Notes: a model not told the origin generated them from the sequence alone. 52,652 nt of DNA from Folioceros fuciformis (GCA_049999805.1 JBNGIO010005956.1:76614-129265), one strand, 5' to 3'. Shown: positions 5,796 through 38,256, numbered from the stretch's first letter. Numbers and translations are program-made.

Positions 5796-7704
5796 CTCCT
5801 CAGAAGAAGAAACACATGCTGGGCGAATGATTCGTCACAGCCCACCAGGCTCTGGATCAGCAGTCTCGGGCGGGCATGCATCTGAGCTGCTGCTGCGGCT
5901 GCTCCTCTTCCTGTGGACGCAGACGCAGCCGCTGCCGCAACCGCAACTCAGCGTCTCCATGCACCTAGGAGTGCTGCAATGCGTTCCAAATTTGGGGCCT
6001 GTCCTGCCGCTCTGACACGAGCACCAGCCACCAAGTACGTCTTTCCTCCGGGACCCGTTGCTTCTCTCTTCTCTCCACCGGCTGCTGTCGTTTGCATTGG
6101 GCCTGGCGCTGGCTGCCTGGACCCTGCTCTTCCAGCGAGGAGACGTCTCAAACGTCACGCTCGCCAACCAATTGCCCTGCACCGTTTGAAACACTTTTAT
6201 TTGCAATAATGTTCGTGGTCCCAGCAAAACCTCAAAACTGGGTCTCCTTTCATCCTATCTTAAATGCACCTTGCCTATTTCTTCTCTTTCAAACGCCCTG
6301 AGGCCCCATTGCTCTACCATGAATCCTGTACGTATCTCATGTAGATCGACCTCAAACTTTGGAGGTGTTACCGTAATCTGTGCCTTAAGGCACTGCTCTC
6401 GTTCGAGGTGTTTCTTCTAGTGCAAGAAGAACTTGTCGCTGACTAGCAGCAACGAGGGGTTTGTTGGAAGAGTCGAGGAACAAGTCAGGGTTGTTCCGGG
6501 GAATGGCAGCGGTATCCAGCTGCTTCTGCTCAGGGCTGTTGACATTGTCACTTGAGCAGGTTTGTTTGATAATTCTGTTGCTTCTGGTGCCGACATGAGA
6601 TGCTGGAGCTTGTCAGTTGCTGGAGGTGTTGTAGCAGTGTCTGTGAAGGCGGGAGCACGGACTTCTCAGGATAATTCAATGCTTGAGTCGAAGAAGTGAA
6701 ATTTGAGGCTGACAGATTTGTACACCACAGATGTGTGGTTGCAGAGACTGTGAAGGCGGAGGATGCTTACATCGATCCTGATCAGCCTCCATGTAGACGG
6801 TCGGCGCTGACGGATTTCAACCCCAAAGAAGTTTGCTCTTAAGAACCTTGAAGGTACCCCCTGTTATTGCAATTGGTATGTTGAACTAGGAGGACTGCTT
6901 CTTCTTGCTGTGGTAATGTTTTCACCTGCCTCCTTCCACTTCAATTGATGACTTCTACCCCCAGATGCAGGTTCGTTTGGACGAAGAGGAAGTGGACGAG
7001 GAACAAGAAGAGGAGGAGGAGGAGGAAAGGAGCAGAAAGAGGTGGGAGCGGTGTGACTCAGGCCAGAAATCCGTGACGCTGAAAGTTCGCCAAAATGTAC
7101 CACATGCATGCTCCACTCTCCCTCTGTTTCATTGACTCTCCTTGGTTGGATCTAGATGCCTGATCTCGTAGTCAAAGCATACCCTAACGGTTCTCAATTG
7201 TGAAAACTGCAGATGGTGGTGAGCTCGGAAGGCTTCCATCTCGTCAATTGAAACTGTATTTGAGACAGAACCGAATGAGAGGATGTGTGGATCTAAACAA
7301 GATATCCTTGACCGGATAAAACTTCACAACTAGGTGGGTGCTTGGCACTCCAATCACAATTTAGCCTTCATTATAAAACAATAAGGTACTCGAGTTTGCA
7401 AAACATAAGACTCATAATTGGTTATGGGCTTTGGTGAGTTGGATTGTTTGATGCTTCTCTTCACCATTTCTATTCCGCGATAAGTATGATAATGAATTGA
7501 AGGCAATAATAATATTTTTATAATAGTTTTAAAATATTAAAAAACCTTTTCCAATATTTTGAATACTCAACTGCGAAAAAATATAGTAAAATTAACTATA
7601 ATATCTTCATAAAATTTTTGAATAAAATTCTTTTATAATCCATTTGAAAAGCCAAAAAAACTACTAGCTTTATGTTTAACATAGTTTAAAGTTTTTTTAA
7701 AAAA

Positions 7705-11184: not shown

Positions 11185-14100
11185 CTATGCTAAAGCAACA
11201 ACAGCAATAGGACTGCTCACATGATGAGAACCATCAGTCCACGTGAGCCTTCCAAACACGTATCCTCCCAGAGAATCCTCCCTAACCGTAAAAGTTACCT
11301 CGTACTTGCGTTTCTCACCAATAGTGTTGAACTCGAGAACAGGAGGAACTACAGAAACCACGACACCTGGAGGTGCCTGCACAACCGAGTGATAGATGCT
11401 TTTCTGGACAGGTCCGACGTTTGTCACAGTCCTTGTAACTGTGAGACTCTTATTCACGGCGGATGCAGCTATGGAGGGATAGTTGAGGTCAGTTGCAGCC
11501 ACACTACTTCTCTCGCTTGAGCACGTGAAGTTGCCCCCGGAGATGGCTTGGACAGAGGTGCTATTGTAACCTGTGCTGCATAGGAAGGTGAGGTAGTCCT
11601 CACTGCAGAGATCGTACACCAGGCCAGGATTCATTACGTTCACGGCATTTACTTGACCAGCTCCATAGTGAAAGGGTGTGGCCGGAGAGAATGATGAATT
11701 CTTTATGATCTCGTTCATGTTGTCATAAGGAGAAGCTGATGTGGCAAAGAGGATGAGGTCAGCGAACGCGTCTTCTTGCACTTTACACACAATATAAACT
11801 GCAATTGCAATGCATAAAACACTTGCCTGAGGTCATGAGAGCAGATTTAATGGCAGCAGGGCTCCAATCTGGGTGGAGTGACTTCATGAGAGCTGCAAGC
11901 CCAGATATATGAGGGCAGGACATAGAAGTCCCTGAGACCATGTTGTACGTCACGGGCACGTTCAATGCTCCCGGCGACCACGAAGCCACGATATTCACCC
12001 CAGGAGCCATGATGTCCGGCTGAAACAGGAAAAAATACCATCAATTTGACATCCATGAGTGTAAGTCGAATGTGGAACGTGCACAACAAGCTAAGTATTG
12101 ATTCAATAAATGTTGGCCTTCAGCACCTGGAAGCACCTACTTCACATATAGCTCCCATCCTACCTTGAGAATGTCAGGAGTGATGGTGTTCGGGCCTTGT
12201 GAGGAAAAGCTGGCCACCACGGGAGCAGGTCTTGTCAATGATCCATTGACTTGGGTTCTCACCTTGGAAAAGAGAACCGAGGGGGATCTGCAACTCACAC
12301 AGAAACATGGATGAAGTACAAAGCAACTCGATTGTACACAATTCGAACGCATGGTGGTTGAAGCCGCAGCACACACACATTAATATTAGTTACCTGGTGG
12401 AGTTGATGTATTTCTTCAGCTCAGCGCCAACTTCTGGAGTCACTTGTGCCACTGGAATGCCGAAGAGCTCAATTTCTTCTGTGTTTACTGGTTCAGAAGA
12501 AATCACTATAAATCCTTTAGCTCCTAGCAACTCAGAAATATATGGGAAACCCAGCTTCGGATCCACTTCGCACACGAGAACTTGAGTCCCGTTCAACTTC
12601 GACAGATCCCAGAACGTCTCATCACAATACTTGCTGTGCACAAAACCACCAAGAATGCAGTCAGCTGGAAACTGCTGGCCTCGAGGGACAATTCGGAGAA
12701 ACATGGCAAAGACCTTCCCCATGTACAGACAAACAAACCTTTGCTCGGAGGTAGAAGTGTTCGAAGGAATGTCTCCAGCATAGACAAGGGGAGAAGGCCC
12801 TGTGATCGGCCATGGCTCCAAAAAATGCCTGTCCGTGAGGGAAACCCCCTGAGACACAAGAACGCATGCATATTAGGCCTTCCACAAGCACCGAAGGAAT
12901 GAAAAAACTGATGTCAAAAACTTTCAAGAGATGTGAACAATACAGTGGCAGAGATGTTCCCAGCAGTGATGGAGTTGACGAAGGTCCGATCAATCGTGCC
13001 CGCCGCGACAGTTGCAATCCAGGGAGCCAGATTGGTGGCCGTCCCTGGAGCCCCTGCATTACCAGCTGAGGCAGACACAAAAATCCCATGCTCCACGGCA
13101 TGGAAAAGCCCAATTGCTACAGGATCTTCGAAAAACTGAGGCTGAGGATTCTCCTGCATGTCAGAGGAGGGCAACCTTGCATGTTAACCACATCCACATA
13201 GGGTTTCCATGCCATACAGGAATCTCATCAGGCCCATCTGCTCCAAACGGCTAGCAGCTAGCAGTAAGCACTTACATTGCCAATAGAGACTGAGATGACA
13301 TCAACGCCGTCAGCAATGGCCTCATCGAGTGCTGCCAACATGTCAGCCTCCTCGCAATTGCCCCCATTCCAGCACACCTTGTACGCGGCAACGTGTGCCA
13401 AAGGTGCTCCACCCTTGGCCGTCCCTCTAGCCAGACCGTCAACATCAACTCCTGCCACAAAACGCCCTGCAGCTGTGGAGGAGGTGTGGGTGCCATGCCC
13501 CTCATCATCCCGTGCCGATCTGTAACCCTGGATCTCGTCGTGGGACTCCAATGCTGCCAGGAAGTACTTTGCTCCAATCACCTTGCTGTGCACGATGGCA
13601 ACACTTAGAACCAGACTAGCAGATGTTCGCACAGTGCACAATTGAGTGAACAGAATCCGTCTCTACAATCTCTGGACTAGCAATTCGTGTCGGGACATAC
13701 TTGTTACAAGTTGTAGCATTCCAACCATCTCCTGTCACGCATTTCCCCTTCCATTTCGAGGGGGGTGGCCGCATGCCGGTATCCGAAAAACTTGCAGATT
13801 CAGGCCAGATTCCTGTTGTAAAAAAACCAGCGTTATTAACCCAGTCAAAACAAAAAAAACCTCACAATCTATTATACTGTTAAATAAACTACTTACCTGT
13901 GTCCAACAGACCGATCGTCAGACCGCTACCATATTCTGTTTTTGACCATAGACCTTCAGAATCAAATTCTGTTAACCCTATGAACTCCAATGAATGAGTT
14001 GTAGCTACTTTTCGTATTTTGCTAGGAAAAACGGATATTATTCCTGGTAAATCTGATAATAAAAATATATATTAATAAATAAAAAAAATTGAATACTCAA

Positions 14101-16521: not shown

Positions 16522-17244
16522 ATTGCTAATGTCCTCTATAGATAATTGCCAAATTTTGTTGACCTCCAAGTAATCTACTTGAATGTTGTCAATGGCTATT
16601 GATTGTTTCATTAGCATATTGAAACAATGATACTTGATGCCCCTTAATCTACAACATTCAATCCTCACCGCCAATAGTATTATATGCTTCGTATTAAAGT
16701 ATTTAAAGTACCATATGACTTTACTAGCCTGTGCTTGCATATACACTGAGGCATCTAGAGTATAAGTTGTTGTTTGAAATGTGAGTGTAACCTAAATTTC
16801 ATTTGCACGGTGTGAATATATGTGGAAGTACCTAAATACTTGTTAATTCTATGTATTAGATTGTACATTATGTATGTATTCTTATCTCAAAACTTGTTGA
16901 TTGTGTGCCCATTGGATTTCATGCTATCCTCTGCATCTCAAAACAAGCAAAGTGTAAATATTGGACTTTTAGACTAACTTTGCATATTCCAAAAGTACAT
17001 AAGCAATTGCTTATATAAACATATCATACTATGCATATCTTAAAACTTGCATGTTGTGTTCATTGGACTTAAGACTATCCCATTTTATCTCAAAACATGT
17101 GAGGTGTGAATCCTAGACTTTATAATCCCATAAGTATTCTTCCTCCCAAGATGCATATGTTTTTATCCCTTTTGCCCTCGAGGTCTATGGCCAACGACTT
17201 TTCAAGGCTCATTAACGAGTCTGTCATGCTGTTGTTGTATGAAG

Positions 17245-17426
17245 AACAGAGCACCTGCGACTCTATGACTAACAGAGCACCTGAGACTCTATGACTAACA
17301 GAGCACCTGAGACTCTATGACTAATAGAGCACATGAGAGTCTATGACTAACAAAGCACCTGAGACTCTATGACTAACAAAGCACCTGGGACTCTATGACT
17401 AACAAAGCACCTGAGACTCTATGACT
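17245..17426. repeat. 26-bp minisatellite, 7 copies
   Basis: AACA(G/A)AGCACCTGAGACTCTATGACT head-to-tail, no spacers. Confidence 0.95.
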
Positions 17427-17799: not shown

Positions 17800-18470
17800 A
17801 AGTGCCTACCATCTGTGGGGGAGGCACTTCATTGAGAGTTCTTGGGGATTTTGCCTATATATGTGAGCTACCGTTCTTGGGGATTTTGCTTATATACGTT
17901 AGCTACCCAGCGATGGATTCTCAGATTGTTGATGTTTGTCTTATTCTAATAGACAACCATACTTCGTCCCTGCTGTGTCTTTGTCTCCCGGAGGTTCTTG
18001 TGGTCTGTTGCATTGTCAGGTTGGGAGAACTTTTCATCTTGATTTTACCACATCAACAATTTTCCATCTTGACTTTAGCTCTTGGGACTTTCAATCCATA
18101 TTTCTTGTTATTTGGACACAATGCAGTGTTTCCGAATGTGGTGAAGGATACTAACTCCAACCCTATTGACTAGAGCAAAAATGCAAATATGTGCTTGGCA
18201 AAGGTTCAAGCCAGAGCAAAGGTGTTTTAAAGGATTCTTCCTATGGCTATGGACAATTTGGCTGTGGCCCAGCATCGGGACCAACTGAGGTATGCTTACA
18301 TGCGGGGGGGCTCATGGAAGCCCAAAGCTCGCAAGTTTGCACTTGGAGATTATGTGTATTTGCAGCACAGGCCTGCAAGCATGTTGGATGTCAGCATAGG
18401 GAGGCTTATCTTGAGAGTTGTGCAAGTTGGTAAGCAGCTGTTGTGTTTTCTAGGCAAAGTGATCTAGACA
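17800..18470 (+). mobile_element. Ty3/gypsy integrase C-terminal relic
   Basis: Frameshifted peptides '...PYFLLFGH...' and 'NLAVAQHRDQLRYAYMRGGSWKPKARKFALGDYVYL...ILRV' resemble the end of gypsy integrases of non-seed plants. Confidence 0.65.
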
Positions 18471-18734
18471 ATTTTGTGGGAAACCTGGTGGCTAAGCCCC
18501 CAAGTTTCCCAAGAGGGCTGTTCGCGGCCTTGGGCCTGCCTCTTTTAGGCAGACCTAGCCCCTTCTTGTAGCCTTACTCTTGGTCATAGGCCAAGAACAA
18601 TTTGTGGCTAGGTTGTTGATCTTGGGCCATAGGCCAAGGATATCGCAGGTGGGCTAGTGCTTAGATACTTAGCATTGTGGATAAGCTGGGTAGGCTTGCA
18701 GCTATGCAGCTGCTGCGCGACAAGTGCGCAAAAA

Positions 18735-19020: not shown

Positions 19021-19498
19021 GCTAGGTCGTGGTTCGCATGTGATGGTGGTGAAGGCGCTAATATAAGGTTGCAAGCAGTTGTGGTGGCATCTTAACCTCC
19101 AAAGGGGGGCTCGGCTGCTAACACATGGGCGGAGGTGGTCAATGAGGGTAAATACAGTAATGCTTCTGACAATATCATGATGGACAGAGTTAATAGGGTG
19201 ATTCAGTTGAACAAATAATTTTGGAAATGATATTCAAGGGGCCTAGTTCTCCTTTTCCAAACTAACTTCAATTGCACTTCGACATTCTTTTCTAGAGATG
19301 TTAGTGGAAGTGTGACAATATTGGTTGGGTGTCAACAAAAAGAGCCAAATGGTTCTAACACCTAGTCAAATGGTTCTCTTAGTTCATTGAGACGCAACAC
19401 ATGTCATCGGTATGTTACCATGTTACAACCTTCCCACCGCCAACCACCAGCAAGCTGTACGTGTCACAAGATGGCAACTGTGCTGGGTCTTTCTATTT

Positions 19499-22480
19499 TC
19501 AAGGTCGACCCTTACAAGTGCAACAACCATCTGCAAAACGATGCACACGGTACGCATCCCTGACAACAATGTCTCTCCTTTCAACCCTTGACATGATCTC
19601 GGTAGAACTGTGGCAGTCACTGCACATGCGTAGATTCTTGGTTACCAGCAAAGGTGTGCCACTGGGAGTGTTCAAGAGACCGTACGCAAGAGCTAGCTTT
19701 TCAGCATGCCCACAAAGCAATTCCTCTTTATCCTTCTCAGACAGGGGCTTCAGTACCAAGTTGGTGTGTGGTACATGACCCCCTTCCTCCTTCAGACGCA
19801 CATTTACACTCTCTACCTTAAGCGAAATATCCTCTCTCCGATCTCCCACCACGAATGTATGTACCTGCTTCCCCACCTCAATGCCTGCCACTGCAGGTTT
19901 CTTGTTAGCTCCTGCTCCCACTCTCTGCTTTTCGATCCTGTCTACATCTGCCCACCTACCTGCATCTGCATATACATTGGCCATGAGCACATATGTGGAA
20001 GCCCGCTGAGGATCAAGTCGAACCAGACTTTCGAAACACCGAATGCCCCTCTCTACATCTCCGTGCCTTTTGCAAGCATTCAGCAAAGACGTCAGACCCA
20101 CCACGTCATTTTGACTCTCATACGATGAGAGCACCTTCTCTGCCTCGTCTAAATGGCCTGCACGCCCAAGAAGATCAACCATGCAGGTGTAATGCCCTGT
20201 GGCAGGTTTGATGCCATGCTGTCCAAACATGGCATCAAAGTGCTTGCGACCCTCATTCACCAGTCCCGCATGACTGCATGCTACTAAAAGGCAAGTGAAG
20301 GTGACATCGTTAGGATGAACGCCAGCTCCTTGCATCTCCTCAAAACACGCTAGTGCCTTTTGACCTTCATCACAAGCACCGTAGCCCGCTATCAGGGCAT
20401 TCCATGTCACCGCATCCTTTGTGGCCAAACTGTCAAAAACTCTCCGTGCCTCTTCCGGTTCCCCGCATTTTGCGTACATGTCCACCAGGCAGGTGCCAAC
20501 CATCATGTCAATCTCCAGCTGTCCTCTTCCTCCAATTTGGGAGTGCAGCCGCCTCCCCAACTGCAAGGCACCAGTGCTTGCACATGCCTTCAAAAGGCAA
20601 GAGAAAGTCACACTGTCAGCAACAATCAGGCCCTCCACCTCCATTTGTTCATGAAGAAGGAGGGCCTCTCGCGCGAGGCCGTTATTTGCATACCCAGCAA
20701 TCAGAGCGTTCCATGTCACCACATTTTTTGAGGACAGGCCATTAAAAACACGGCGTGCATTCTCCAGATCACCACATTTTGCGTACATGTCCACCAGAGA
20801 GTTGCCAACAAACAAGTTGAGAGGGACGCCGCTGTGCAACAAATCAAAGTGCACTTGTCTGCCTGATTCCAAGTCGGCTGCGACTGCACAGGCTTGAAGA
20901 GCAGCTACGAAGACGTGAGCATCCGCCTTCAGACCTGAGCTCCGCATCTCGTGGTACAACTGTATGCCCTTCTGTGCCGCACCAGCGTTTGCGCAGGCCT
21001 TTAGAAGGGAAGCAAAGGTAACATGGTCAGCCAAAATCAGGCCCTCTTGCTTCATTCGTCCATACAGGAGAAGAGCCTCTTGACCCAGCCCATGATTTGC
21101 ATAACCAGCTATAAGGGCGGTCCATGTCACCACATCCTTCGAGGACAAGCCGTCGAAAACCTGGCGTGCATCTTCCATTTCGCCACATTTTGCATACATA
21201 TCCACCAAGCAGTTGCTAACAATCAAGTTGCCTAGCTGACCTCTTCCCACAATCTGCAAGTGCAGCTGCCTGCCCTTTTGTAAGGCACCTGTGCTTGCAC
21301 ACGCCTTGAGAAGGGAGGCAAACGTGACTTGGTTGGCCGCAATCAACCCCTCTTGCTCCATCTGTTCATGGAGAAGGAGGGCCTGTTGACCGTGCCCGTG
21401 ATTTGCATACCCCGCTATGAGGGAATTCCATGTCACAACATCCTTTACGCCCATGCCCTCAAAAGCCTGGCGTGCATCATCCAGTTTTCCACATTTTGCA
21501 TACATGTCGACCAGGGAGTTGCCAACAAACAAGTTAGAAGCAATACTGCTGTGCAACACATCAGAGTGCACTTTTCTACCAGATTCCAGGTCGCTGGCAA
21601 GTGCGCAAGCTTGAAGGGCAGCTACAAAGACATGGGCATCCGCCGTCACACCTGACCTACACATTTCATGATACAGCAGTATGGCCTCCTTAGGCTTCCG
21701 ATGTTGAGCGTGTGCGGAGATGATGGAAGACCAGATGAAGGCATCTGGTTGGCCAACCCTGGTGAACACGTCCATGGCCTCTTGCAACCTTCCCGCAGAT
21801 GCATACATGCGCAAGATGTGGTTCCCCAAGAAAGCATCCGACTCGTACCCGAGTTTGACAGAGAGATAATGAACTCGTCGCCCCAGAACCAGATCCTTCT
21901 TGGCTGCACAAAGTTTTAGCACGGCATAAACAAGAGACTCAGAAACACGACAGTCCGTCTGCGCCAAAAATTCCAGGGCCTCAACGGCCTCCGTGGGCTT
22001 CCCCTGCTGACACAACGAGCTTACGGTCACAGGAGTCACACCCACGTCCGACCCTGAAGGAGAAGCCCCATGACTCATCTGCATATCCAAAGCAACCAGC
22101 TGCTCATCTACCCAGGCAGGCTTGAGAAAGTTGTCAAGCCAGAGGACCTCGCCGGACCCCTTGCGTCGGAAGTCAGGCGAACGGGAGCTCTTCTTATCTC
22201 GCCTGTTATCCCACCACACCGTAGGATCCAGAAAAAACTGCCGCCACAGGAGCTCCTGCTCCTCCCCCTGGCGACGACCATCCCGGGAACGGGGAAGTCC
22301 TTCTCCAACCACACCTTTTCTCAGAACTGCAGGGTTCCTCCCACTGCTGCACCTGCAAGCGTGCTTGTCTGCCATTGCGTGACTGCCTAGAGAGAGCTGA
22401 GCGGGAGCTCCTGGAACAACCCCTGTCCTCCCACCAATTTGCTGAGTCCACAAGGCATCCGGTTGCCACACGGTGGCCAT
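19499..22480 (-). CDS. PLS-class PPR protein with E1-E2-DYW:KP (GRP-type) domain and N-terminal PDF motif; candidate U-to-C organellar RNA editing factor
   Basis: Intronless 993-aa ORF with ~19 P/L/S motifs including a P-LL-L-S unit, then P2-L2-S2-E1-E2. KPAVAGIE replaces the PG box, followed by HAEKLA, CSDC and a C-terminal CTCKGRP. N-terminal LWRQFFLDPTVWWDNRRDKKSSRSPDF...LWL...PAWV motif. Confidence 0.93.
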   Translation of the reverse strand: MATVWQPDALWTQQIGGRTGVVPGAPAQLSLGSHAMADKHACRCSSGRNPAVLRKGVVGEGLPRSRDGRRQGEEQELLWRQFFLDPTVWWDNRRDKKSSRSPDFRRKGSGEVLWLDNFLKPAWVDEQLVALDMQMSHGASPSGSDVGVTPVTVSSLCQQGKPTEAVEALEFLAQTDCRVSESLVYAVLKLCAAKKDLVLGRRVHYLSVKLGYESDAFLGNHILRMYASAGRLQEAMDVFTRVGQPDAFIWSSIISAHAQHRKPKEAILLYHEMCRSGVTADAHVFVAALQACALASDLESGRKVHSDVLHSSIASNLFVGNSLVDMYAKCGKLDDARQAFEGMGVKDVVTWNSLIAGYANHGHGQQALLLHEQMEQEGLIAANQVTFASLLKACASTGALQKGRQLHLQIVGRGQLGNLIVSNCLVDMYAKCGEMEDARQVFDGLSSKDVVTWTALIAGYANHGLGQEALLLYGRMKQEGLILADHVTFASLLKACANAGAAQKGIQLYHEMRSSGLKADAHVFVAALQACAVAADLESGRQVHFDLLHSGVPLNLFVGNSLVDMYAKCGDLENARRVFNGLSSKNVVTWNALIAGYANNGLAREALLLHEQMEVEGLIVADSVTFSCLLKACASTGALQLGRRLHSQIGGRGQLEIDMMVGTCLVDMYAKCGEPEEARRVFDSLATKDAVTWNALIAGYGACDEGQKALACFEEMQGAGVHPNDVTFTCLLVACSHAGLVNEGRKHFDAMFGQHGIKPATGHYTCMVDLLGRAGHLDEAEKVLSSYESQNDVVGLTSLLNACKRHGDVERGIRCFESLVRLDPQRASTYVLMANVYADAGRWADVDRIEKQRVGAGANKKPAVAGIEVGKQVHTFVVGDRREDISLKVESVNVRLKEEGGHVPHTNLVLKPLSEKDKEELLCGHAEKLALAYGLLNTPSGTPLLVTKNLRMCSDCHSSTEIMSRVERRDIVVRDAYRVHRFADGCCTCKGRP

Positions 22481-22599
22481 GTTACACCACCTGTCGCTGT
22501 CGGGAAAATTGAGACGGCAGGACTCCTAGGCACTCTGCATAGCCAACAACAAGACGTGAAGAGGCTACCCCATCCTCAGCAAGCGCAGTGTAGACGCTG

Positions 22600-22850
22600 T
22601 AAGTATCTGCAGATAAATGGAAGCGTGGGAAGATCAATTCCACCCCGCATTCTTCTCAGGGAAAGTCTCAGACACAGCATCCGTTCTTCCAGGCTCCTGC
22701 ATTTCGCACACACATTGAATGAGAAAGCTTCCACCTCAGAATCCGATCCAAGTCCCAGCTCAGAAGCCTTGCCCCTACGCTGCAAAGCTGCTGCAGGCTG
22801 CATCGCCCGGTTCAGCTCTGCACCTGTAAGGTCCTCAGCAATCTATGTTG
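22600..22850 (-). pseudogene. Decayed PLS-PPR fragment immediately upstream of the DYW:KP gene
   Basis: Frameshifted L/S-like peptides 'AACSSFAA', 'GSFLI/NVCAKCRSLEE', 'VFETFPEKN.GWN'. Confidence 0.5.
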
Positions 22851-23685
22851 CGGGCGTCTCAAAATCAAGCAATCACAAGATACGTTTTCGCCAAGGGCTC
22901 ACAATCTTCTTGTCATCCAGGACGCCAGTTTCCGTCTCTCTCAACCAGAGGCTGAGCCCAATTTCATCACCCTTTCAGGTAAAGTTATCTGGAAACGATC
23001 TCCTTTCGCAAGGAACCATAAAAAGATATCTAAACCATTAAAAGATATGTAAAGTAAGAGATTGTAAAGAATATGTAAAGCAAGAGATGAAAAAAAAACA
23101 TAGCTTCGATTGTCATTGTCTGTAAGGTGTCATTTTGACTGTTTCAGTCCTCTGGTTTGGAATATGGATAAGGACACCACTTGTATAATATATAGTCCAG
23201 TATTTTTAATTTTATGGATATGAACTGCATGGGCAGTGTGTGGTTATTAGGGCATCGCCAATATGGCCATCACCAAAGGATGACTCTTTTTCTTTCTTGA
23301 CACACCGCTGAACAAAATACTTTTTTTTTTGGGACAAAATGTCATCATGGTTTTTAGGGTTCGAGCGCACATAGAAACCAAATCACCATGCTTGTTGTCG
23401 CCTCCTTCTTGTGAACCTAGTCCATTCTCTCTTGAGGCAAGGGTCATAGCCAAGCAAGTCTAGTTCCTTCGAGGCAACAATCATGTTGCAACACCTTCGA
23501 CTACATAAAGGTAGGGAGAATGGAACCATACCATCTTTATTCCAAGCATCTGAGGGCAACATGATCCAACAACAGTTTATGGACAAAAAGGCAAACTCTT
23601 GCATACTATTTCTAAGACCAAAGAAGACAAATGTCGATCAACGCCCATGGAGTGGTCTCATTCTCTGTCCATAACTGCAAGTACA

Positions 23686-23850
23686 CCTCCAATGGCTTCA
23701 TCTTGTTCCTGCACTTTGTACGCAACATTGTTAAAGCCAACCTCCAATGGCTTCATCTTGTTCCTGCACTTTGTACGCAACACTGTTAAAGCCAACCTCC
23801 AATGGCTTCATCTTGTTCCTACACTTTGTACGCAACATTGTTAAAGCCAA
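23686..23850. repeat. 55-bp tandem repeat x3
   Basis: CCTCCAATGGCTTCATCTTGTTCCTGCACTTTGTACGCAACATTGTTAAAGCCAA at 23686, 23741, 23796. Confidence 0.92.
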
Positions 23851-24035
23851 GTGCAGCTCATACATGTCCGGGAGGAAGTTCATACTCTCCAAGCCCTGTG
23901 CATACGCATACGACAATGATTAAAATATGCACTTGCAAGACAAGTTGCAATTGTAAGTTATAAGGGCATATGAAAGGCAAGATTAGAGGCACTCTGCAAG
24001 GGTTTCTGCAACTACACTCCATTTGGTCATTTGCA

Positions 24036-24171
24036 ACACAATGTGGAAGGGCTCCGCAAGGCCTATAGCAAGGGACACAATGTNNNNNNNNNNCACAATG
24101 TGGAAGGGCTCCGCAAGGCCTATAGCAAGGGACACAATGTGGAAGGGCTCCGCAAGGCCTACAGCAAGGGA
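24036..24171. repeat. 39-bp tandem repeat (>=3 copies, spans an N gap), followed by a TGCAAG-rich degenerate tract to ~24850
   Basis: CACAATGTGGAAGGGCTCCGCAAGGCCTATAGCAAGGGA repeated. Confidence 0.85.
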
Positions 24172-25464
24172 ATCCGCATCCTAAACCTGCAAGGTTATGT
24201 GCATCGTGGAATTTGCAATGCAAATAGCAAGGCAACTTGCAAACAAAACCTTCAAGGCAAACCTACATTTGCAATTCTCATTTATAGGTTCCACTTGTTC
24301 TTTACGATTGCATGATTCAAGGCCATCTGTAAGACAATCTAGACTAGCCATTTGCAAGGAAATCTATAATTAGGATCAGCACCCACACACTACCCTTGCA
24401 ACCCCTAAAGCCATTTGCAAGCCCAACCGCATGGCACCCTTAGCTGAAATTAAACCCTGCAATCCCTCCTTCGAGCTGCTCACCCCAGGGTGTGTGAGAG
24501 AGTGACACCCACAACACTTTGCAATCTGCAAAGCAATATGAGGGGCAAGTTGTATGGCAACTGGTCCAAGGACATTGTGCAATGTAGTTAGCAAGGGCAA
24601 TTTGCAAGTTTCACTTAGTCTTCAAAGCTTTAGGGTCCTACAATCTCCAATGCAACACCCACAACAATTGGCAATCTACAAGGACACTATGCAATGTAGT
24701 GTGCATGGACCGTCTAAAATGTAGTGTGCTGGGACAATCTACAATCCATCGTGCAAGGACAATTTGCAAGTTCTACCCATTGTGCAAGGCAATTTGGAAG
24801 GTCAATGCAATCTAGTGGGACAATCTACAAGTGCAAACTAAGGTCTAAGGGTTTCCTACATGATGTGAGGGGAAAAATAATATCATCAAGCTTGTGCATT
24901 GAGAAGAAAGAAAGTTATGGAGTAGAAAAAAATGCTCATTGTTCCTAATCAATCCGTAGTCATCATAAAGATGGAAGAAACAAAGTCTATACCATAGGAC
25001 AATACATAATGTGTCTTGGAACCCTAAAACATATATGTATGCCAAAGATACCGTAGAATATTCGTGTACAGCATATGGTTGAGAAAAAAAGACCTAATCG
25101 GGCATCATATGTCCATATTAGTATTCCATACTTCAAACCACATAGCTTTGTTACTCTTGGGCCTATATTGAGCATAGATCTAAATTTTCACCCACCTTAG
25201 TCTTGAAATCTTTTTTCTACTTCTTGGAATTAGGATCAAGCTCCATTTGCAATCAAATTAACACCTACTATGTGGTCATACCAATTATAAACCGAGCCTT
25301 TTTGAAATTGTCAATCCTCGAAAAAAACGAAGGCTTAGAACCTAGGCTTATTTATTTTTGCTATTTCAAAGTAATCACTTCATATATTGTTTAACTTTCA
25401 AAGTGAACACCTCTCTCCATTCCTACAACATAAAGAGAAAGAAAAATCTTGTCCATTCCATTCT

Positions 25465-25752
25465 ATACTTTCATCCCTTTGTTCTTTAGACTCATGGGCT
25501 ATGGACAAGGACTTTTCAAGGTTCATCAAGGAATGCATGAAGGTCTATTAGAGTCATAGGAATGAGGTTCTCCCTCTTTCCTTTGTGTGGTAGCCTTGTT
25601 TGCAAAGAGCATTGGCCAATGTGGTGTTTAGAACAACAACAAGCGCAGATCAACATATGAGGTTTGAAGCAGCTTCTGATCTTTGGCCCTACTCGGGATT
25701 TTTCTCCAATCTTTGGAGTAGATGAGACTTTCCATTTTTTTTTAATAATAGA
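25465..25752 (+). mobile_element. CRE-like non-LTR retrotransposon 3' fragment, copy 3 (internally deleted)
   Basis: CTTTCATCCCTTTG...GGACTTTTCAAGGTTCATCAAGGA...CTTTGGAGTAGATGAGACTTTCCATTTTTTTTTAATAATAG: same 3' end as copies 1 and 4. Confidence 0.7.
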
Positions 25753-26792
25753 AAATAATTATCCTTCCGTGACAAAGAAAACAATCCTCGTGAAGACACT
25801 AAGAATATGGCACTAAACTAATTAGTGTTCCCTTTCTAAGCTAATCTGTAAGGATTGATAACGTATGATCCAGTAGTAAAGAAGTATATTTATATATGTA
25901 CATAAAAATATCGGTATTAAAATATAAATTATTAATACAAGTTAGTTTTTTTTCACCCAAATCAAAAAGCTACAACCCACCAAACGGCCCGTGCCGATAT
26001 GTGTGTGTATGTATGTATATACATAGCTAGACACATATATAGGAAAGCGCGTATGCAGTGGCGCGGGCACAACAGGGGAGAGGAAGGCAACAGGAGCTTC
26101 CGCCAGCCCGGTTCGGGCCGCACTGCCGCCCCGGGCCCGGCGCAAACAGAACAAGAAGTTGGCGACAATCCCGGCACGATGTCAGAAACCCTCGGCCGGC
26201 GCTGCCTGCAGGCACAACCTCCGGACTTGTGGGCGCAACTTGTGCCACAGGCGTATCCAGTCGTCTGAGTACGCTCAGCCGGTTGCCGGTTGGCGTTGCA
26301 GATGGAGGCTCCCTCAAGTCCCCCCGGTCCCCGCTTGTGCTTCGACTGCTCGGAAAAGCGTGTTGACCCACCGGTCTTTCTTGCGGGCTATCTGTCACCG
26401 CCCGGTTCGCCTTCTTCTGCATTGTGCTTGCTCTGCAGGCAAGACTGTGTGTGCCTCTGCAGCCTCGCCAGCCGGACCGATCTGCAAGCTCGAGTGCGCC
26501 GGCCGAGCCATTTCTAAGTCTCCGAGCCATTTCTGAGTCTTGGGGATGCTGCTGCTGCCGCTGCAGCGCCAGAGGCGGCAAGGGCGGTGAGATCGAGTGT
26601 CGGGTGCCGGGAGGCTGCAGATTCGGGTTGTGCGTTGCCGATCTGCGGTTGGAGGCGGTGATCCTGGTGGTGGGTTTTCGGAGGAGGGTCTGCAGGAGGA
26701 GGAAGAGCGGCAGCAGCATTCCGCTGCTGGGAATCGGAGCGAGGAGCTGTTGCGGACTTTATGTTCTCGGGAGCGGGAGGAGAGCATCGGGA

Positions 26793-29449
<2,657 letters not shown>

Positions 29450-30182
29450 GAAAGGGAGCGCTTGATGCTTTCCACAGGCAAGCCCTGCGCATGAGTGGTC
29501 CCCTTCCTGGGACCCTGCCAGGAGGCGCTGGCTGCCTGGGCTGCATGTTACTGGTGCTTTGCTTGTTCCTTACAATGCCGCTTCCAGAGGCAAAATCAAA
29601 GTGCAAAGTCTGCCCCAAGGGGCAGTCAGCGCACATCAACTGGCTGGTAAAGAGATACTTGAGATGCTGGAAGGCCCATACTGAGAGGGTATGGTATGAG
29701 AGTTTCGGGGTTGGGGAAGCAGAGGCTGGTGCTGGATGCTTCCATCTGTGCCTAAGCAGTTATCACTCCGTAGTGATTGGAGAGACTTGTATTTTGAGAA
29801 TAATGTCGTTGTACTAGTCCGCCCTGTAGTCAGCATGGAGGTTCTCTGCTGCTCTTGGGCAAGGACAGGATTTTGCGGCGTCCCAGAACCCTCTGTATCA
29901 GCGGTTTGGTTGGGGTTTGAGTGAAGCTTTGCCTTTGCACCCGGTGAGGAATGCTTAGTCTGTCACAGCAGGCCAACCAGATCGGGTATAAAGTTCGCCG
30001 AGCACCAGTGCCGAATTTGAAAGGAGCCAACGGCGTCCAGAGGTATACAGATACATTATTTATAACGCCACAACAGGGCGGCTTTAGGCGTTCGCTCGCA
30101 CCTTCAAGCACGGGAAAGTCCGCCTTTTCACAAAAAAGTTCACATGTATTACATTTGCGGCGCGCAAGGTCCTGAGTAAGTT

Positions 30183-32191
30183 CTAATCGATAACCCTAGT
30201 GTACGAGTGGCCAGCAAAGCGATTGTAGCAAGCGGAAAACTGGGCCATGACAACTTGCAAACCAGCCTGCACATCACAAACACACGTGGTCTTATCCGCG
30301 AGCCACACCTCACGCAGAAACCGGTAGATCTCAGACAGGTAATGCCGTACCTGGATTTTCGAAGGCAAGGATTTCCAGAAGTCTAGGTTGGGAATAGCCT
30401 GCCACGAGACGCAATCACCGTTAACTGGCGGACGTAATGGCAGGTTTTCGGAACGGAACAACTTGGTACCTGGCAGGTGATGGGCACACAGCGTACCTCC
30501 AGGCCACTTACTCCCAAAACTGTCATGCGGTAAGCAATGCCAACGGCAAGGTACACTATGAAAAGACAGAGAAATCTGCATCATATATACTTCATCAGAA
30601 CTGCAACGAGTGATTTTGGTTAGAGGAGGCCATCCGAGGGGAACGTTTTCAAGGGCGAAGCTCACATGATGAGAAGCATACCGAACCAGCCCATCCCTCC
30701 ACCTTTCAGGGAAGTCACAACTGGGCACCCGGCAGGATGTTTGATACTTGTTATCTGCACCAACATCAACCACCGTCGTCACTGAGAGAACGCTTCTGTG
30801 TCCAGTGCGATGTCTTTTGCATTTTTCGGATCTAAAATCGCAAGAAGGGAGCGAAATACACATAAACGTGACCGGTGATGCTTACAAATTGACAGTCCCC
30901 ATTTGCACCCTTGACAACCGCTTTAGGAGGCTGCAAAACAGCTGAGCAAATGATGGTGTGCATGGAGAGACAGCATGTAGGAACGACACAGGAAAAAGGG
31001 ATCCGGACAGAAGTTAACCACCATACGAAAAATTTGGGGAACAGTAGTTGACAGAGGACAATAATTGGGGAAAGGGGGGAAATTCTGAACATACCTCTGC
31101 ACCTGATTTGGAACACAGTATGGACACCGACAAAGAACAAGAAATCCCATTAGCACTTGCTGACATATTAGCAATTAGACCTTCTTCAGGATTCTGGGAA
31201 TCTGTGCAAACAAGTACAACACAGTTGGTACACCACATTTCACGCACAGCTACTTTACTACTCAACTTCACATAAGACAGGCCAGTGTACCCAAAAGTGT
31301 GAAAACTGTGCTTGATGCATATCCGAGAGTTGTGCAGATTGAGTACCCTGCAGCATGATTGCCAAGTCACAGGCAGTTTTCACAAAGGTGTACCTTGAAT
31401 CAACAATGAGCAGACACATCAAAACGACTTGAAACGAGATCAGCAGGGATCTCAGCAAACCTGGATAATGAACTGCGTGGAGTGCACTACATGTTTCACC
31501 ACAATGATCAGGCCCACCACATGACTACAAACGAGCCAAGTCTGTCGTGTGAGGACACAATACATTGACACATTTCATGAAGCGATGTTCACTACAAACA
31601 GGAAAAGAAAAAAAAGAGCAAGGCGTGAAGACGGCACTCACTTGACAATTTTCGCACACTGGTGGGTCATGGTTGAACTTCATATGCTCACATATCTGCA
31701 CAAAAATTTCCAATGTAAAAACCAAGATCAGCAAGACAGCTTCCACAACTGACATTCTCTTCCCACAGTACACAGAGTGTGAGTTAGCATTCCCAACCTG
31801 AAACCAGAAGGTGGACTCGTAGCCTGTGTCGGCATCTTTTTGGATGACCTTGTAAAACCTAAAACCTTGGCAGTAAGTATCACTTCTAGGTCGGGTTTAC
31901 TGCAATCGCCAGCTTTCCAACCCACAGCAGCAGCATCGATTGCACTTCTATCAGTCCACCCAGGCTCCAGTGACAAGCCGGCACTCCCCAAGCTCAGCAT
32001 CAGTGTCAAAGTTCTTACCCATCCTCGCTTCGGACCCCATGTGGATAATTGGTCACCGAAGTGGCAATATCGAAATCATATCTCTTGTTCTGCGTGGCCG
32101 TCTGCCAGGCGCACACCTGAGCATTCACCAAACTGGCACTTGCTACCAGCACAACAACAATCGTTACCATCACCACATCGTCCATCATCAT
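30183..32191 (-). CDS. ATG27 / mannose-6-phosphate-receptor-like type I membrane protein (At2g40316-like), 11 small exons
   Basis: Spliced peptide: signal peptide MMMDDVVMVTIVVVLVASASLVNA, YPHGVRSEDG|FYKV...FWFQ|ICEHMKFNHDPPVCENCQ|SCGGPDHCGETCSAL...|...KHPAGCP...GWFGMLLII|FLCLFIVYLAVGIAYR...|AIPNLDFW...|...YTRVID*. All introns GT-AG. No single ORF in the track covers it. Confidence 0.85.
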
Positions 32192-33405: not shown

Positions 33406-36084
33406 TCAACCCATGAAACGTCCCACACCGACATATTGGAGCCCATCCACCACCTCCTCCTCTTCTGCAGTTCGTTCTTGTTTTGTGCCTATCTCAGTAG
33501 TTCGGCGAGCTCCAAATCTTCTGGCACTGCGAACCATGTCTTTGGCTTTTCGATCGGGTGTCAGTCCAGCCAGCTGCATTTCTTCAAACACCTGGGGAAC
33601 CTGCAGAGTCCGTATCCGAGTTAGTCACTGTCTCGTGCTGACGGCGCATTCTGAAGGGTGGGCCTTTGAGTTGACCTGATCTAACTGACCAGCCTTCGTG
33701 AGACCCTTCATGAGTGTGGTGTAACTGACCACATCCGGAGACAATCCCTGTAGGGGACAATTGCGTAAACACATAAGAAATTTTGTGGACACATGAAGCA
33801 CAGGCGGACTACTGCTTCTTACAGATTCTTTCATATAATCCAGAACTTGAGATGCTTCCTCATGTCTTGCAGCAACTGCGAATGAGTTCAGAAGCACATT
33901 CAACATGAGCATGTTGGGCTCAATGCCATCTTCTTCCATTCGTTGAAACAGCACCACAGCTTGCTCGGCCATGCCCTGTCGTGCAGTAAAACGAGTTTCA
34001 TTCAGAGTCAGATCCCAGGCTGCGTACGTCATACGCGAGAGCTCAAATAGTAAGTGGCCAGCTAGACAGCAGCAGTACGTTGCAAAAGGTGGAGTGGGAG
34101 ATGGAGTAGAAACTGCCCCCTTACGACGGACACAACAATAAAGGCGGCTAACCTGTTTAGCATAGGCGTTTGCAAGCGCACAATAAACACTAGGACTGGG
34201 CTTCATGCCTTGCTCCTTCATGCGCTCCACACATTCAACAGCATCTCTATAACGGCCAGATTGGCCATAAATGTCAACTAATGTAGTGTACGTGATGACA
34301 TCACCAGTCAGATTAGACTCTCTCATTCTCTCCAGGAAAGAATCTAGTAGATCCCACCGTTTGGCAAGGCCCATTGCATTGATCATGATATTATATGTTG
34401 TGATGTCTGGGGGACATCCGTCCTTGTGCATTTGTACCATCGCACGTCGTGCATCCTTAAAATGACCTGCTTTACAATGGGCATACACCAGTGAGTTCCA
34501 GGACACCAGATCTGGTTCAATGCCTTCGGTGGACATCCGTTCAAACACCTGTTGAGCCTTCTTAGGCTGCCCCAGTTTGGCAAAAGTATCGATGACAATA
34601 TTGAAGACGTGCCTGTTGGGTGGAATATTGGCAGCATTCATCTCTTGCATCATTCTTATCACACTCGCCCATTGGCCTGTATCCCTCAAACAGGCCATCA
34701 GCCTGCTGTACATAAAAGCGTTGGGCTGCACATTGTCAGCCTCCATGCCACGGACCATGGATCGTGCTTTCTCTAACTGGCCTGCCCTCGTGTAAAAGTC
34801 AAGAAGCACACCATAGCAGTAAGCATTAGGAGTCACTCCACTTTCTTTCATGATCCTGAGAAGGTTCTCAGCTTGCTCAAGCATTCCCTTCTTGGCATAA
34901 GCAGAAAGCAAAGCCGAATATGCCCGAAGTTTCGGAACTCCACAGTCTACCTTCATCTTCTCGAACAGGAGTTCTACATCCTGCGTCCTTCCAATGGGTC
35001 CCAAGGCCTCCATGAGCCCAATATAACCTTTAGCCTCACACGGAAAACCAGCCTTTCTCATTTTCTCCCATAACCCGAGCGCCTCAGCTGCCCCTCCAGC
35101 CTGAGCACACGCGTACACTAGGTCACTATACAACTTGGCATCTATGTCCACGTTGTCACCTAGCATCTTCTCGTAGACCTCCAATATGACGGAGAGATCC
35201 ACCTTGGCAATCACGCAAGCCTGAACCAGTTTGCTGTAGTTCAAGGCATCGGTCTGAAATCCCGCCAACTTCATTTCCCTAAGCAGATCTACTGCCCTCA
35301 CATGATCACCTTCGTGACAGCAAGCTCCGATGAGCGCATTGTACACAAACGCTCCCCAGGATCCACTACTTCGCCTAACTCTTTCTGCCAATTCAAAAGC
35401 ATCCTGGAGCCTGCCCAGCTTGCTCAGACCATGAATGATAATCGAGTACAGTACATCGTACGACTGACAAACACGATAGGCCTCGAGCCAGCCCAGTAGC
35501 TTCAGAGCAGCGTCACACCTTCCAAATATGCACATCCGTCTGACCAACTTGTTCCACGCAGACTGCGGCACTCCCTTATACACAAACACGGGCAGCTCCG
35601 CCGGATCAAACCCATCTGCACCTTCGAAGTACTTCACCAGTGGCATCAGATTCCACCCTGGATTCCACACCAATGAGCTATTCTTTGTGTCCAAATGCGG
35701 TAGCAAGCCGTCCTGGTCCTCTTCAATGGGTCTCCATTTCTGCCGCTTGATCCTCTTGAGCTTCGGCCACTGTTTTACGCCTTCCTGGCGCCACACCGTC
35801 TGCTCATCCCCCGAAGTGCTCAGCTCCACCTCTTGTCCTGCTTGCACACCGTGGCTCCTCAAATCCGTGGACAGCTCCTGGAATTTGTCCTGCTCTAGTG
35901 CCCCACAGCACAAGACAGAAATCCCTGTCTGCCTCTTGCCCCTCCAGCCGGAGGTCGCTCTTAGAGGACAAAAATTTGGGATCCCCAAGGGTCCAATGGG
36001 CTTCAAGGATAGCATGCTCTCCCAAGACCCAGATACATGCAGCTTCGCAGGACACAAATGCACATTCAGCAATTGCAGTTGCAT
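33406..36084 (-). CDS. CRP1: P-class PPR protein, CRP1-like (chloroplast RNA processing 1), 4 exons
   Basis: Exons 36084-34153, 33975-33823, 33747-33676, 33600-33406. About 14 P motifs colinear with Arabidopsis CRP1/At5g42310 as recalled (YNALIGAC, VQPNAFMYSRLMA, IEPDLVSWNSL, PDRKAKDMVRSA). Start Met uncertain. Confidence 0.82.
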
Positions 36085-36872
36085 TTCAACATCAGTCCGC
36101 AAACACACCGCACCCCAACATGGATTACTACCACAGCAAAGAGGCCTGGATAAGGATAGTGCCAGGATTGTGCTCTCATCCGGCCAGAAGACGCGAGTGG
36201 CCCTCAGCAACTGATGGGGTTCAAAGCTGCTCGAGCACCCGAAATAAAAAGAAGGAAAAGTACATTTATAAAGACATCCGGATTTCTTCAAATCCAGATT
36301 AACACATCAAGGTCGAACATGGAAATTAGTCATACGAGATCACCCACCTGATTGAATACTCAAAGGAACGTGGACATTGTTCACGATTTTCGCTTGTGCA
36401 GTGCGGGTGAAATTGAAGGAGAGGGGAATGTGCAGAACCTGGTGGAAAGTTTGCACTCGTGTAATCCTCACGAAAGGTTCCCTGACTGTATTCACTCTCC
36501 TGTCGAGAGGTGACTTAAGTTAAGTTACAGAACACTGCCTGCTAGCAAGGCACGTTTCAACTCTACATCCGGCATTTAGCACCCCTGCTGGATGCAACAC
36601 TTCAATTTTGGATGATGGATGATTTTGTACACGTAGCTTCTTTCGAAGCCCATTAGGCTATGCTGTCTCCTGATGGTACCACACAACAGTACAATGCCCA
36701 GTAAACTAACATGGGCAGCCTGATTGTGCAGTGCGCTATGTGTCACCTTTTCAGTACCTGCTAGTAGCCAATCACCTGATGATAGCACTGATGACTGCTG
36801 GAAACTTTTTCTGTGCAGGGCACATGCTGGACTGAAAGCCATGTGCCGATCCTTGACAATGAAAAAACGGTG

Positions 36873-38256
36873 TCAGGCTGTGAGTTGCTCGTCCCTGCCT
36901 CGGCTAGCTGACCGCAAGAAGAGTGTTACTGACTGCAAGAGGAAGTCAATTTGTTAATCCGAGAACTTAGTACTGTAACCAAGTTGAAAGATGTATTTGC
37001 TCGGGGGATGCTCACGGTACCTTGGTCACGATATGACAGAAGATCCCGATTGGACACATCATGAGGCAGAGAATCAAAGAGTGCCTTGTCTCGACACCGC
37101 TGCTGACTCCGTCGAGGTAAATTTGTCTGCCCCACGAACCTCGAAGCGTGTTAGGACACATGCTTGTGTGTGTGAACTCACTCCCAACGACGGAAGCTAT
37201 TTACCTGCCGGCAAAGAGGTCAGCAGCAAGCAGGTGGACCCATGCTGAGGCCACGGTCATGGTGCTGGAGAACATGCGAGTGATGCCAGGCAGCTGCACA
37301 ACACGCAGTCATAGTGGTTGGAACATGAAGCAATGACATTAGCGCATGAGCAGTGAGACAGCGATTCCGTACCTCCTCCTACCTCTGGCAACCAATACTT
37401 GCTAGAGAACATCAACGGCAGGGTTTCAGATGTGAAGGATAGAGCAAACAGATAGGCGTAGAGAGCCCCCAGAACAACGAAGGGAAAGTTGCTTTCCACA
37501 GCCCTTTTGGTCTGCAACATGAGGCCAGGGGGACGAACTATGCAGGTGAGAGTTCAGAAGCCCTGTCATGACGAGCAGCTCAGGGTGAAGACGACGCTGC
37601 AAGCAGAGGAGAAGAGACAAAAAGGGATGGAAGGTGAGGCTGTCACCCATTCCCACTTGGGCGCTACTATCATGATGGTATACAGGGGTACGACAAACGC
37701 GGTGGCAGATGTGAACAGGGCTCCTGCCAACTCCACACTCCCCGGACCTGCTTGGCCACAGCGGACAGAGACACTCATCTCGGATGCACCATCTACTCTC
37801 CATGAACGTGAACAACAAGGAACAACCACTGCTCTGCTCTGCCATGCACACCTGGAGTGATGGCCATAGACCTGATTAAGCTCCTGCACGAACTGAGACT
37901 GGGACTGGGACCGGGAGTGCCAGTCACCCGCTTCCATTTCAGCACATCTGTCCCCGTAGCTGTTGCTGGCTCGAGCCTGAAGTGACTCCCTCCACTTGCC
38001 CACCGAGGGGCACCGAACGCAGAGCAGTTCACAAAAGCTGAGACCGGGTTCTGGGAGTTCCCGATCTGCAACAGATAAAATAGGTCTCCATCAACAGAGA
38101 GAGCGTTTCAAGGCTGACCCTCTCGCTAACGCAGCAACAAGTGGCTACCAAGCCCACCTTGGGATAGCACAATATGTCAGCGCATCCCACCTTGTGCAAC
38201 GAGGCCTGCAGTTCTCCAAGCGAGATGCCATCGCAACGCAGAGTCGACATTGCCAT
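36873..38256 (-). CDS. ABA4: ABA DEFICIENT 4 (DUF4281, neoxanthin synthesis), chloroplast-targeted, multi-exon
   Basis: Spliced peptides [45 protein letters not shown]...[44 protein letters not shown]...[16 protein letters not shown]...[10 protein letters not shown]...*. The N-terminal transit-peptide exons are approximate. Confidence 0.88.

What the first reader, a model, noticed from the sequence alone, without database searches (positions are those of the whole stretch)
19499..19910. Catalytically intact GRP-type DYW:KP domain: candidate native reverse (U-to-C) RNA editing enzyme
Seen: KKPAVAGIE replaces the PG box, the gating region is shortened, the active site is HAEKLA...CSDC, and the terminus is GRP instead of DYW. 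Established: DYW:KP proteins are restricted to lineages with U-to-C editing (hornworts, ferns, some lycophytes), consensus-designed versions perform U-to-C editing, and many natural copies are degenerate. This copy keeps all zinc ligands and the catalytic Glu.
Basis: partly seen in the sequence, partly recalled or inferred. Interest (0 to 1): 0.7.

Follow-up and report, generated by a model that had tools for sequence, protein, structure and literature searches.

The report
Hornwort-type reverse RNA-editing protein gene
This is an intact, transcribed plant nuclear gene for a protein that most likely changes one U to C in a chloroplast or mitochondrial RNA; it is an ordinary member of a described family with over a hundred near-identical copies in this genome, though it also carries a small DNA-binding-type domain at its front end that may have been overlooked.

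Summary
Observation confirmed. 19499-22480 (-) is an intronless 993-aa PLS-E1-E2-DYW:KP gene. Its 133-aa domain has the KP box, a 4-residue gating deletion against OTP86, HAE, CSDC, GRP and also Lys88, which U-to-C activity needs. It groups with the GRP clade (support 98), is under purifying selection (dN/dS 0.15) and is transcribed in one RNA run. It is not special: the other 149 of 150 scored genome hits are 75-86% identical, none with a stop, and 46 of 46 aligned GRP domains keep the same catalytic set. Consensus GRP domains do U-to-C only (PMC9478123); no natural one was found tested. No target could be predicted, since no organelle genome turned up in G000. New here: the N-terminus carries an OSB-type 'PDF' mini-domain (51% identical to poplar OSB1-like), in 27 of 27 GRP, 11 of 23 DRH and 0 of 4 DYW:PG ORFs. 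It also occurs on Selaginella, fern and Sphagnum PPR proteins, so it is not U-to-C specific. Verdict: new member of a known kind.

The parts
19499..22480 (-). Whole coding sequence, 993 aa plus stop, no intron needed: leader - PDF motif - PLS array - P2 L2 S2 - E1 - E2 - DYW:KP (GRP)
   Evidence: One open frame; start Met at 22480 matches the conserved M-x-x-x-W start of most paralogues; Pfam PPR, E motif, DYW
22253..22480 (-). 76-aa leader, presumed organelle targeting peptide (compartment not determined)
   Evidence: Position; few acidic residues in the first 50 aa (2 D/E, 4 R/K, 7 S/T) as in paralogues. Inference; no targeting predictor was run
22094..22252 (-). OSB-type 'PDF' mini-domain (about 53 aa)
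   Evidence: 51% identity, E 3e-18 to poplar OSB1-like and 49%, E 6e-21 to Drosera OSB1-like; profile hits 703 representatives; confident model, pLDDT 90.6
20414..21940 (-). 15 P1/L1/S1-type PPR motifs (RNA-recognition array)
   Evidence: Motifs delimited by hand-set anchors; Pfam PPR; internal repeats at 306 and 411 nt spacing
20921..21025 (-). Hybrid motif, L-type start and P-type end: junction of an internal duplication of about 717 nt
   Evidence: this pattern is in 1 of 55 ORFs screened, the window's own
20105..20413 (-). P2, L2, S2 motifs (5th/last residues NN, TA, TD)
19901..20104 (-). E1 and E2 motifs
   Evidence: Pfam E_motif E 1.4e-14
19502..19900 (-). DYW:KP domain, GRP subtype, 133 aa
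   Evidence: fold matches OTP86 and DYW1 DYW domains, Foldseek E 4.6e-8 and 1e-6
19700..19708 (-). H65-A66-E67: zinc ligand and catalytic glutamate
   Evidence: invariant in 46 of 46 aligned GRP domains
19637..19639 (-). Lys88, the active-site lysine needed for U-to-C activity in designer KP proteins
   Evidence: 46 of 46; PMC11845758, PMC11713852
19613..19624 (-). C93-S-D-C96 zinc ligands
   Evidence: both Cys in 46 of 46
19502..19510 (-). Terminal G-R-P in place of D-Y-W
22189..22810 (-). Transcribed 5' end: start codon plus about 330 nt upstream
   Evidence: Contig of RNA run X1 with 0 differing letters; strand inferred from the gene, contigs do not show it
19198..19619 (-). Transcribed 3' end: last 39 codons plus about 300 nt downstream
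   Evidence: Contig of RNA run X1 with 0 differing letters; strand inferred from the gene

Best explanation
A nucleus-encoded, site-specific U-to-C editing factor of a hornwort-type plant, of the GRP subgroup of PLS-DYW:KP proteins. Shown here: the gene is whole, transcribed and constrained, and has every residue that designer GRP enzymes need. Inferred: the leader takes it into plastid or mitochondrion; 18 PPR motifs read the RNA 5' of one uridine (S2 at -4), with a predicted core of U at -14, G -13, U -9, G -7, C/U -6, G -4; the DYW:KP domain holds that uridine at the zinc/Glu67 site. By the published model for designer proteins, Lys88 attacks C4 and gives its nitrogen through a covalent RNA-protein intermediate, which the plant then resolves in an unknown way. 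The PDF mini-domain most likely adds sequence-independent affinity for single-stranded nucleic acid; that step is the weakest inference.
For: Architecture and residues. GRP clade, support 98, inside KP, support 99, apart from DYW:PG (quick tree). dN/dS 0.15 over the domain and 0.09 over residues 64-133 against 45 paralogues. Exact 5' and 3' contigs in run X1, which is spliced at the neighbour genes and empty over intergenic bins. Consensus GRP proteins KP2 and KP3 gave 22-26% U-to-C in E. coli and no C-to-U there or in HEK293T; HAA and AxxA mutants were dead; K88A switches them to C-to-U. In Anthoceros full-length DYW:KP numbers track U-to-C sites while DYW:PG genes are few; likewise only 4 of the 30 best PF14432 loci here are PG-type. 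Paralogues differ at the 5th/last residues of S1, P2 and S2, as expected for factors with different targets.
Against: No target: G000 gave no rbcL hit and one decayed cox1 piece, so the PPR array was not matched to any editing site. A 2025 paper says the activity of natural KP proteins is unknown. The fern-type KP6 does both reactions and a few substitutions shift direction; this copy has two of the states that favoured U-to-C in KP6 (A116, V119) and two that favoured C-to-U (G64, V113), the latter two shared by all 46 GRP domains. Purified KP2 showed no U-to-C in vitro. Expression rests on one RNA run of one study, as contigs. The hybrid motif makes the register upstream of -12 unsure.
Confidence: 0.7

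Rival explanations
1. An intact but currently target-less or redundant paralogue: a recent product of family expansion and internal duplication whose site is lost, not yet gained, or served by another copy.
For: At least 150 close paralogues; 6 of 36 loci in fetched clusters are already broken; this copy has an internal duplication with a hybrid motif seen in 1 of 55 ORFs.
Against: Whole frame, intact PDF motif, transcription, dN/dS 0.15 (an average over history, not proof of present use), end branch of ordinary length, 0.12, equal to the median.
Confidence: 0.15
2. A C-to-U or two-way editing factor: natural GRP domains may deaminate cytidine in the organelle, which would help explain the scarcity of DYW:PG genes.
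For: DYW:PG genes are few in this genome (4 of 30 best PF14432 loci); KP6 does both reactions and small changes shift the balance; catalytic residues are shared with DYW:PG.
Against: Both GRP consensus proteins were U-to-C only and became C-to-U only after K88A; published counts link full-length KP proteins to U-to-C sites.
Confidence: 0.12
3. A donor of the catalytic domain in trans to truncated PLS/E+ proteins, as proposed for ferns.
For: Trans donors are proposed for ferns, where DYW:KP genes are few.
Against: This protein has 18 PPR motifs with canonical recognition residues and belongs to a family of hundreds, unlike the few short fern donors.
Confidence: 0.03

Closest known systems
Hornwort GRP subgroup of PLS-DYW:KP proteins (Gerke et al. 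2020, known here only through PMC9478123); designer KP2 and KP3
   Same: KP box, HAE, 133 aa with xHP missing, M92, Glu in place of the PG-type Lys near position 101, terminal GRP, Lys88.
   Different: Natural full-length protein with its own leader, 18-motif array and a PDF domain; the designer proteins use a consensus PLS scaffold with no such N-terminal domain described. The KP2/KP3 letters were not available as text for direct comparison.
Hornwort DRH subgroup of DYW:KP
   Same: KP box, HAE, Lys88, short gating region; present in this genome (35 domains in the tree); 11 of 23 ORFs carry the PDF motif.
   Different: Ends in D-R-H or variants and keeps Lys where GRP has E101; the one DRH domain is 64% identical; the DRH-based designer KP1 was not among the three active ones.
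DYW:PG C-to-U editors (OTP86, DYW1, PpPPR56)
   Same: Same fold and zinc/Glu site; conserved active-site lysine.
   Different: PG box, HSE, xHP present, DYW end; separate clade; 0 of 4 PG ORFs in this genome have the PDF motif.
[quoted passage not shown]
   Same: The N-terminal 53-aa motif is about 50% identical to OSB1-like PDF motifs; the AtOSB1 PDF motif is reported sufficient for ssDNA binding (PMC6963530).
   Different: No OB-fold here (Pfam finds none); one motif sits before a PPR array, not after an SSB-like domain; binding by this copy is untested.

Membership tests
DYW:KP, GRP subgroup | KP in place of the PG box | tested here: met
   K1-P2 at 19900-19895
DYW:KP, GRP subgroup | HAE...CxxC active site (Ala, not Ser) | tested here: met
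   H65 A66 E67, C93, C96
DYW:KP, GRP subgroup | 132-133 aa, xHP of the gating region missing | tested here: met
   133 aa; 4-residue gap against 7o4e and 9kfx
DYW:KP, GRP subgroup | Terminal GRP and Glu replacing the PG-type Lys103 | tested here: met
   G131 R132 P133; E101; feature described in PMC9478123, whose numbering is one off from mine
DYW:KP, GRP subgroup | Groups with GRP domains, apart from DRH and PG | tested here: met
   GRP side of one branch, SH-aLRT 98; KP against PG 99; quick tree of 90 rows, 133 columns
DYW:KP, GRP subgroup | Score against the published DYW:KP and DYW:PG HMMs (Gutmann 2020) | not testable with these tools
   Those profiles are not in the libraries; Pfam PF14432 does not separate the two
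Active U-to-C editing factor | Lys88 present | tested here: met
   K88 at 19639; necessary, not sufficient, as DYW:PG has it too
Active U-to-C editing factor | Full PLS-P2L2S2-E1E2 array in frame, and expressed | tested here: met
   both ends in RNA run X1
Active U-to-C editing factor | PPR code matches a U-to-C site in an organelle | not testable with these tools
   No organelle genome found in G000
Active U-to-C editing factor | Measured U-to-C activity; organelle import | not testable with these tools
   Needs experiments
DYW:PG (C-to-U) | PG box, HSE, terminal DYW | tested here: not met
   KP, HAE, GRP instead
OSB PDF motif | About 50-aa motif with the Pro-Asp-Phe signature, homologous to OSB1 motifs | tested here: met
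   PDF present; 49-51% identity, E 6e-21 and 3e-18; 26 of 60 hand-picked profile hits carry Pfam SSB
OSB PDF motif | Binds single-stranded nucleic acid | not testable with these tools
   Reported for AtOSB1 only
OSB protein family | N-terminal OB-fold | tested here: not met
   No SSB family hit in the protein

The most novel reading that the evidence does not exclude
Many editing factors of seed-free plants, and nearly all hornwort GRP proteins, carry an OSB-derived PDF mini-domain that is a working part of the editor and is not described in the papers I could search. It would be a built-in single-strand-binding helper in lineages that lack MORF cofactors. At the boldest, it is part of what the designer KP proteins lack, so that a full-length native protein like this one would complete U-to-C editing and release its RNA where KP2, KP3 and KP6 stay crosslinked. 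Against this: the motif is on Selaginella PPR proteins (no U-to-C editing) and a Sphagnum DYW:PG protein, is missing from 12 of 23 DRH ORFs, is eroded in about 8 of 27 GRP ORFs, and is no more constrained than the leader (dN/dS 0.30 against 0.31). Two primary papers that may already mention it could not be read.
Probability: 0.2. Interest if true: 0.65.

Novelty: new member of a known kind. Interest (0 to 1): 0.3.

Why it matters
How plants turn U into C is still open: all activity data I found come from consensus-designed proteins, which stall as RNA-protein crosslinks. A natural, full-length, expressed GRP protein is the right kind of reagent to settle this, and U-to-C editors have biotechnology value. 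But this gene is interchangeable with a hundred or more paralogues, and the family was proposed for this role in 2020, so the locus itself adds little. The more useful point is the N-terminal PDF domain: any test of a native GRP protein should keep it, and deleting it is a cheap experiment.

Tried and rejected
Target prediction: searches of G000 for COX1 and RuBisCO_large found one decayed cox1 piece and nothing, so no organelle sequence was on hand; I did not scan the metagenome collection, since 20 kb from another species would not decide it. 'Rare intact copy': rejected. 'PDF domain is specific to U-to-C editors': rejected, as it occurs on Selaginella PPRs and a Sphagnum DYW:PG protein and is absent from 12 of 23 DRH ORFs. 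Pfam has no family for the motif. The ESM Atlas gave only phage gp49 clusters at 0.78-0.82, below the useful level. Word-indexed searches with the motif found one protein each. No solved structure matches it by sequence (best E 0.067) or fold (Foldseek none under E 0.001; best Z 3.9, rmsd 3.4, 60 aligned), which does not show the fold is new. The DYW model from a 6-row alignment was poor in the gating region (mean pLDDT 62) and was used only to confirm the fold. Joints inside the gene have non-splice ends and two of three also stand in DNA runs: read as paralogue artefacts, not introns. Read depth over the gene sums many paralogues and was not used. No holder was on record as RNA; X1 was shown to be RNA by its spliced joints. 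The careful tree did not finish; the quick tree is cited. One dN/dS script returned nothing and was redone. KP2/KP3 letters were not found in 7 supplement files; one file was unreadable pictures. Gerke 2020 and Zaegel 2006 are not held; Gutmann 2020 was not looked up. Earlier scan notes: none.

Full report
Observation. The finding lies at the 3' end of a minus-strand open frame, 19499-22525. The first Met is at 22480 and matches the start of most paralogues, giving 993 aa with no intron needed. Pfam finds PPR repeats, the E motif and DYW_deaminase. From the K of 'KP' at 19900 the domain has 133 residues, with H65-A66-E67, K88, M92, C93-x-x-C96, E101 and G-R-P. H97, H120, C127 and C129 are also present; that these form a second zinc site is recalled, not from a call. 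Alignment to OTP86 and a synthetic PPR-DYW shows a 4-residue gap at the xHP position.

Family. PMC9478123 (parts 1-3 of 6 read) names DRH and GRP as the two hornwort variants of DYW:KP, notes the missing xHP, and reports that the GRP consensus proteins KP2 and KP3 edit U-to-C (26% and 22% in E. coli) with no C-to-U, and that HAA and AxxA mutants are dead. PMC11845758 (parts 1-2 of 4) shows Lys88 is essential, that K88A turns KP2 and KP3 into C-to-U editors, and states that the activity of natural KP proteins is unknown. PMC11713852 (part 1 of 3) and PMC11332814 (passages) give the lysine-crosslink model and note that release is unexplained. A quick tree of 90 domains puts this one on the GRP side of a branch with support 98, inside KP (99), apart from five PG domains. 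That the genome is a hornwort's is inferred from the GRP/DRH family and the 87-Mb size; I did not identify it further. Three searches listed no test of a natural DYW:KP protein; most subscription papers are outside the library.

This copy is ordinary. A search of G000 with the domain gave 590 candidates. Of the 150 scored, the other 149 are 75-86% identical and none has a stop. The 590 may include DRH types, so it is not a GRP count. Among 48 GRP domains extracted, 46 are 133 aa and all 46 keep H65, A66, E67, K88, C93, C96, H97, H120, C127 and C129 (two of other lengths left out; extraction favoured intact motifs). In 20 fetched stretches around top hits, 30 of 36 DYW-like loci are whole and 6 broken. 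Only 4 of the 30 best PF14432 loci are PG-type, matching the reported pattern in Anthoceros of many full-length KP and few DYW genes (passages of PMC12548569 and PMC13263110). Hornwort genomes have 1,500-2,300 PPR genes, many of them intron-less duplicates (passages of PMC13386178).

Signs of function. Against 45 paralogues dN is 0.107 and dS 0.712 (ratio 0.15; 0.09 for residues 64-133). Run X1 is RNA: it is spliced at GT..AG joints of the neighbouring kinase gene and empty over 18000-18633 and 23072-26241, where DNA runs have depth. It holds two contigs with no differing letter at 22189-22810 and 19198-19619, the gene's unique ends. This is one run of one study, as contigs, so level and strand are not shown.

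Recognition array. Eighteen PPR motifs precede E1-E2. With S2 at -4 (PMC9478123) and the code TD:G, ND:U (passage of PMC12733224; NN as C/U and SD as G are recalled), the prediction is U-20, G-19, U-17, Y-16, U-14, G-13, U-9, G-7, Y-6, G-4. The motif at -12 starts as L and ends as P, the junction of an internal duplication of about 717 nt, seen in 1 of 55 ORFs, so the register beyond -12 is unsure. The prediction could not be tested: G000 gave no rbcL hit and only a decayed cox1 piece.

An extra domain. Residues 77-129 (22252-22094) form a Trp-rich motif with no Pfam family and 491 candidates in G000, many in the same open frames as the GRP hits. A profile of 13 copies hits 703 representatives. 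Of 60 that I picked from the best 150, 26 carry Pfam SSB and 9 carry PPR repeats; named members include OSB1-like proteins of poplar and Drosera. Direct comparison gives 51% (E 3e-18) and 49% (E 6e-21). This is the roughly 50-aa PDF motif of OSB proteins, reported sufficient for ssDNA binding in AtOSB1 (passages of PMC6963530). It folds as a confident mini-domain (pLDDT 90.6). It is detectable in 27 of 27 GRP ORFs, 11 of 23 DRH ORFs and 0 of 4 PG ORFs (one more DRH ORF in the first set lacks it). Three searches and a look in PMC13386178 showed no description of a PDF-PPR fusion, but I read those searches as listings only, and Gerke 2020 and Gutmann 2020 were not read. Against a U-to-C-specific role: the fusion occurs in Adiantum, Ceratopteris, Pteridium, Diphasiastrum, Selaginella and a Sphagnum DYW:PG protein; Selaginella lacks U-to-C editing; about 8 of 27 GRP copies are eroded; and dN/dS is 0.30 (22 ORFs with at least 50% ungapped identity), no lower than 0.31 for the first 15 codons.

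Mechanism. Shown: whole gene, transcript, constraint, all required residues, GRP membership. Inferred: organelle import, binding of one RNA site by the array, and U-to-C conversion by Lys88 attack at the zinc/Glu67 centre as modelled for designer proteins. Probability 0.7. Rivals: target-less or redundant paralogue 0.15, C-to-U or two-way activity 0.12, trans donor 0.03.

Verdict. Real and correctly classified, but a typical member of a described, much expanded subfamily already proposed for this role. New member of a known kind; interest 0.3, lifted a little by the PDF-domain fusion, which is cheap to test.

Noticed in passing
P0036, P0089, P0095, P0098, P0115, P0129, P0135: [quoted passage not shown] Not seen described in three paper searches.
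   Followed up: partly
L031:1500-1680 (G000:C1915): Decayed nuclear copy of mitochondrial cox1. Against the recalled cox1 consensus, several codons differ as C-to-U editing would mend and one (Tyr for His) as U-to-C would; mutation after transfer is not excluded.
   Followed up: partly
G000 C5803, C6370, C5624, C6088, C6141 (L032-L051): GRP genes sit in tandem clusters a few kb apart with broken copies between them; the window's copy has no such neighbour within 52 kb.
   Followed up: partly
L082-L085: Canonical DYW:PG genes are rare here: 4 of the 30 best PF14432 loci.
   Followed up: partly
window 26367-30886: A spliced protein-kinase gene on + and a spliced gene on - converge; one RNA contig spans both, suggesting overlapping 3' ends.
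   Followed up: no
window 33625-36306 (-): A P-class PPR gene, apparently with introns read through in one open frame, covered in the RNA run.
   Followed up: no
window 11185-13662 (-); 37566-39583 (-); 42627-43142 (-): Subtilase exons (Peptidase_S8, fn3_6), a SPRY-domain and an ABA4-like exon, and a DUF7869 frame.
   Followed up: no
window 39978-40670 and 50507-52420 (-): Broken copia-type retroelement remnants (Pol beta-barrel, RVT_2, SH3-like).
   Followed up: no
window 17238-17426, 23685-23850, 24094-24171, 47598-47949: Short tandem arrays with periods 26, 55, 39 and 49 nt, two of them flanking the gene.
   Followed up: no
window 4212-5834 (-): A 540-aa GC-rich open frame with no Pfam match.
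   Followed up: no
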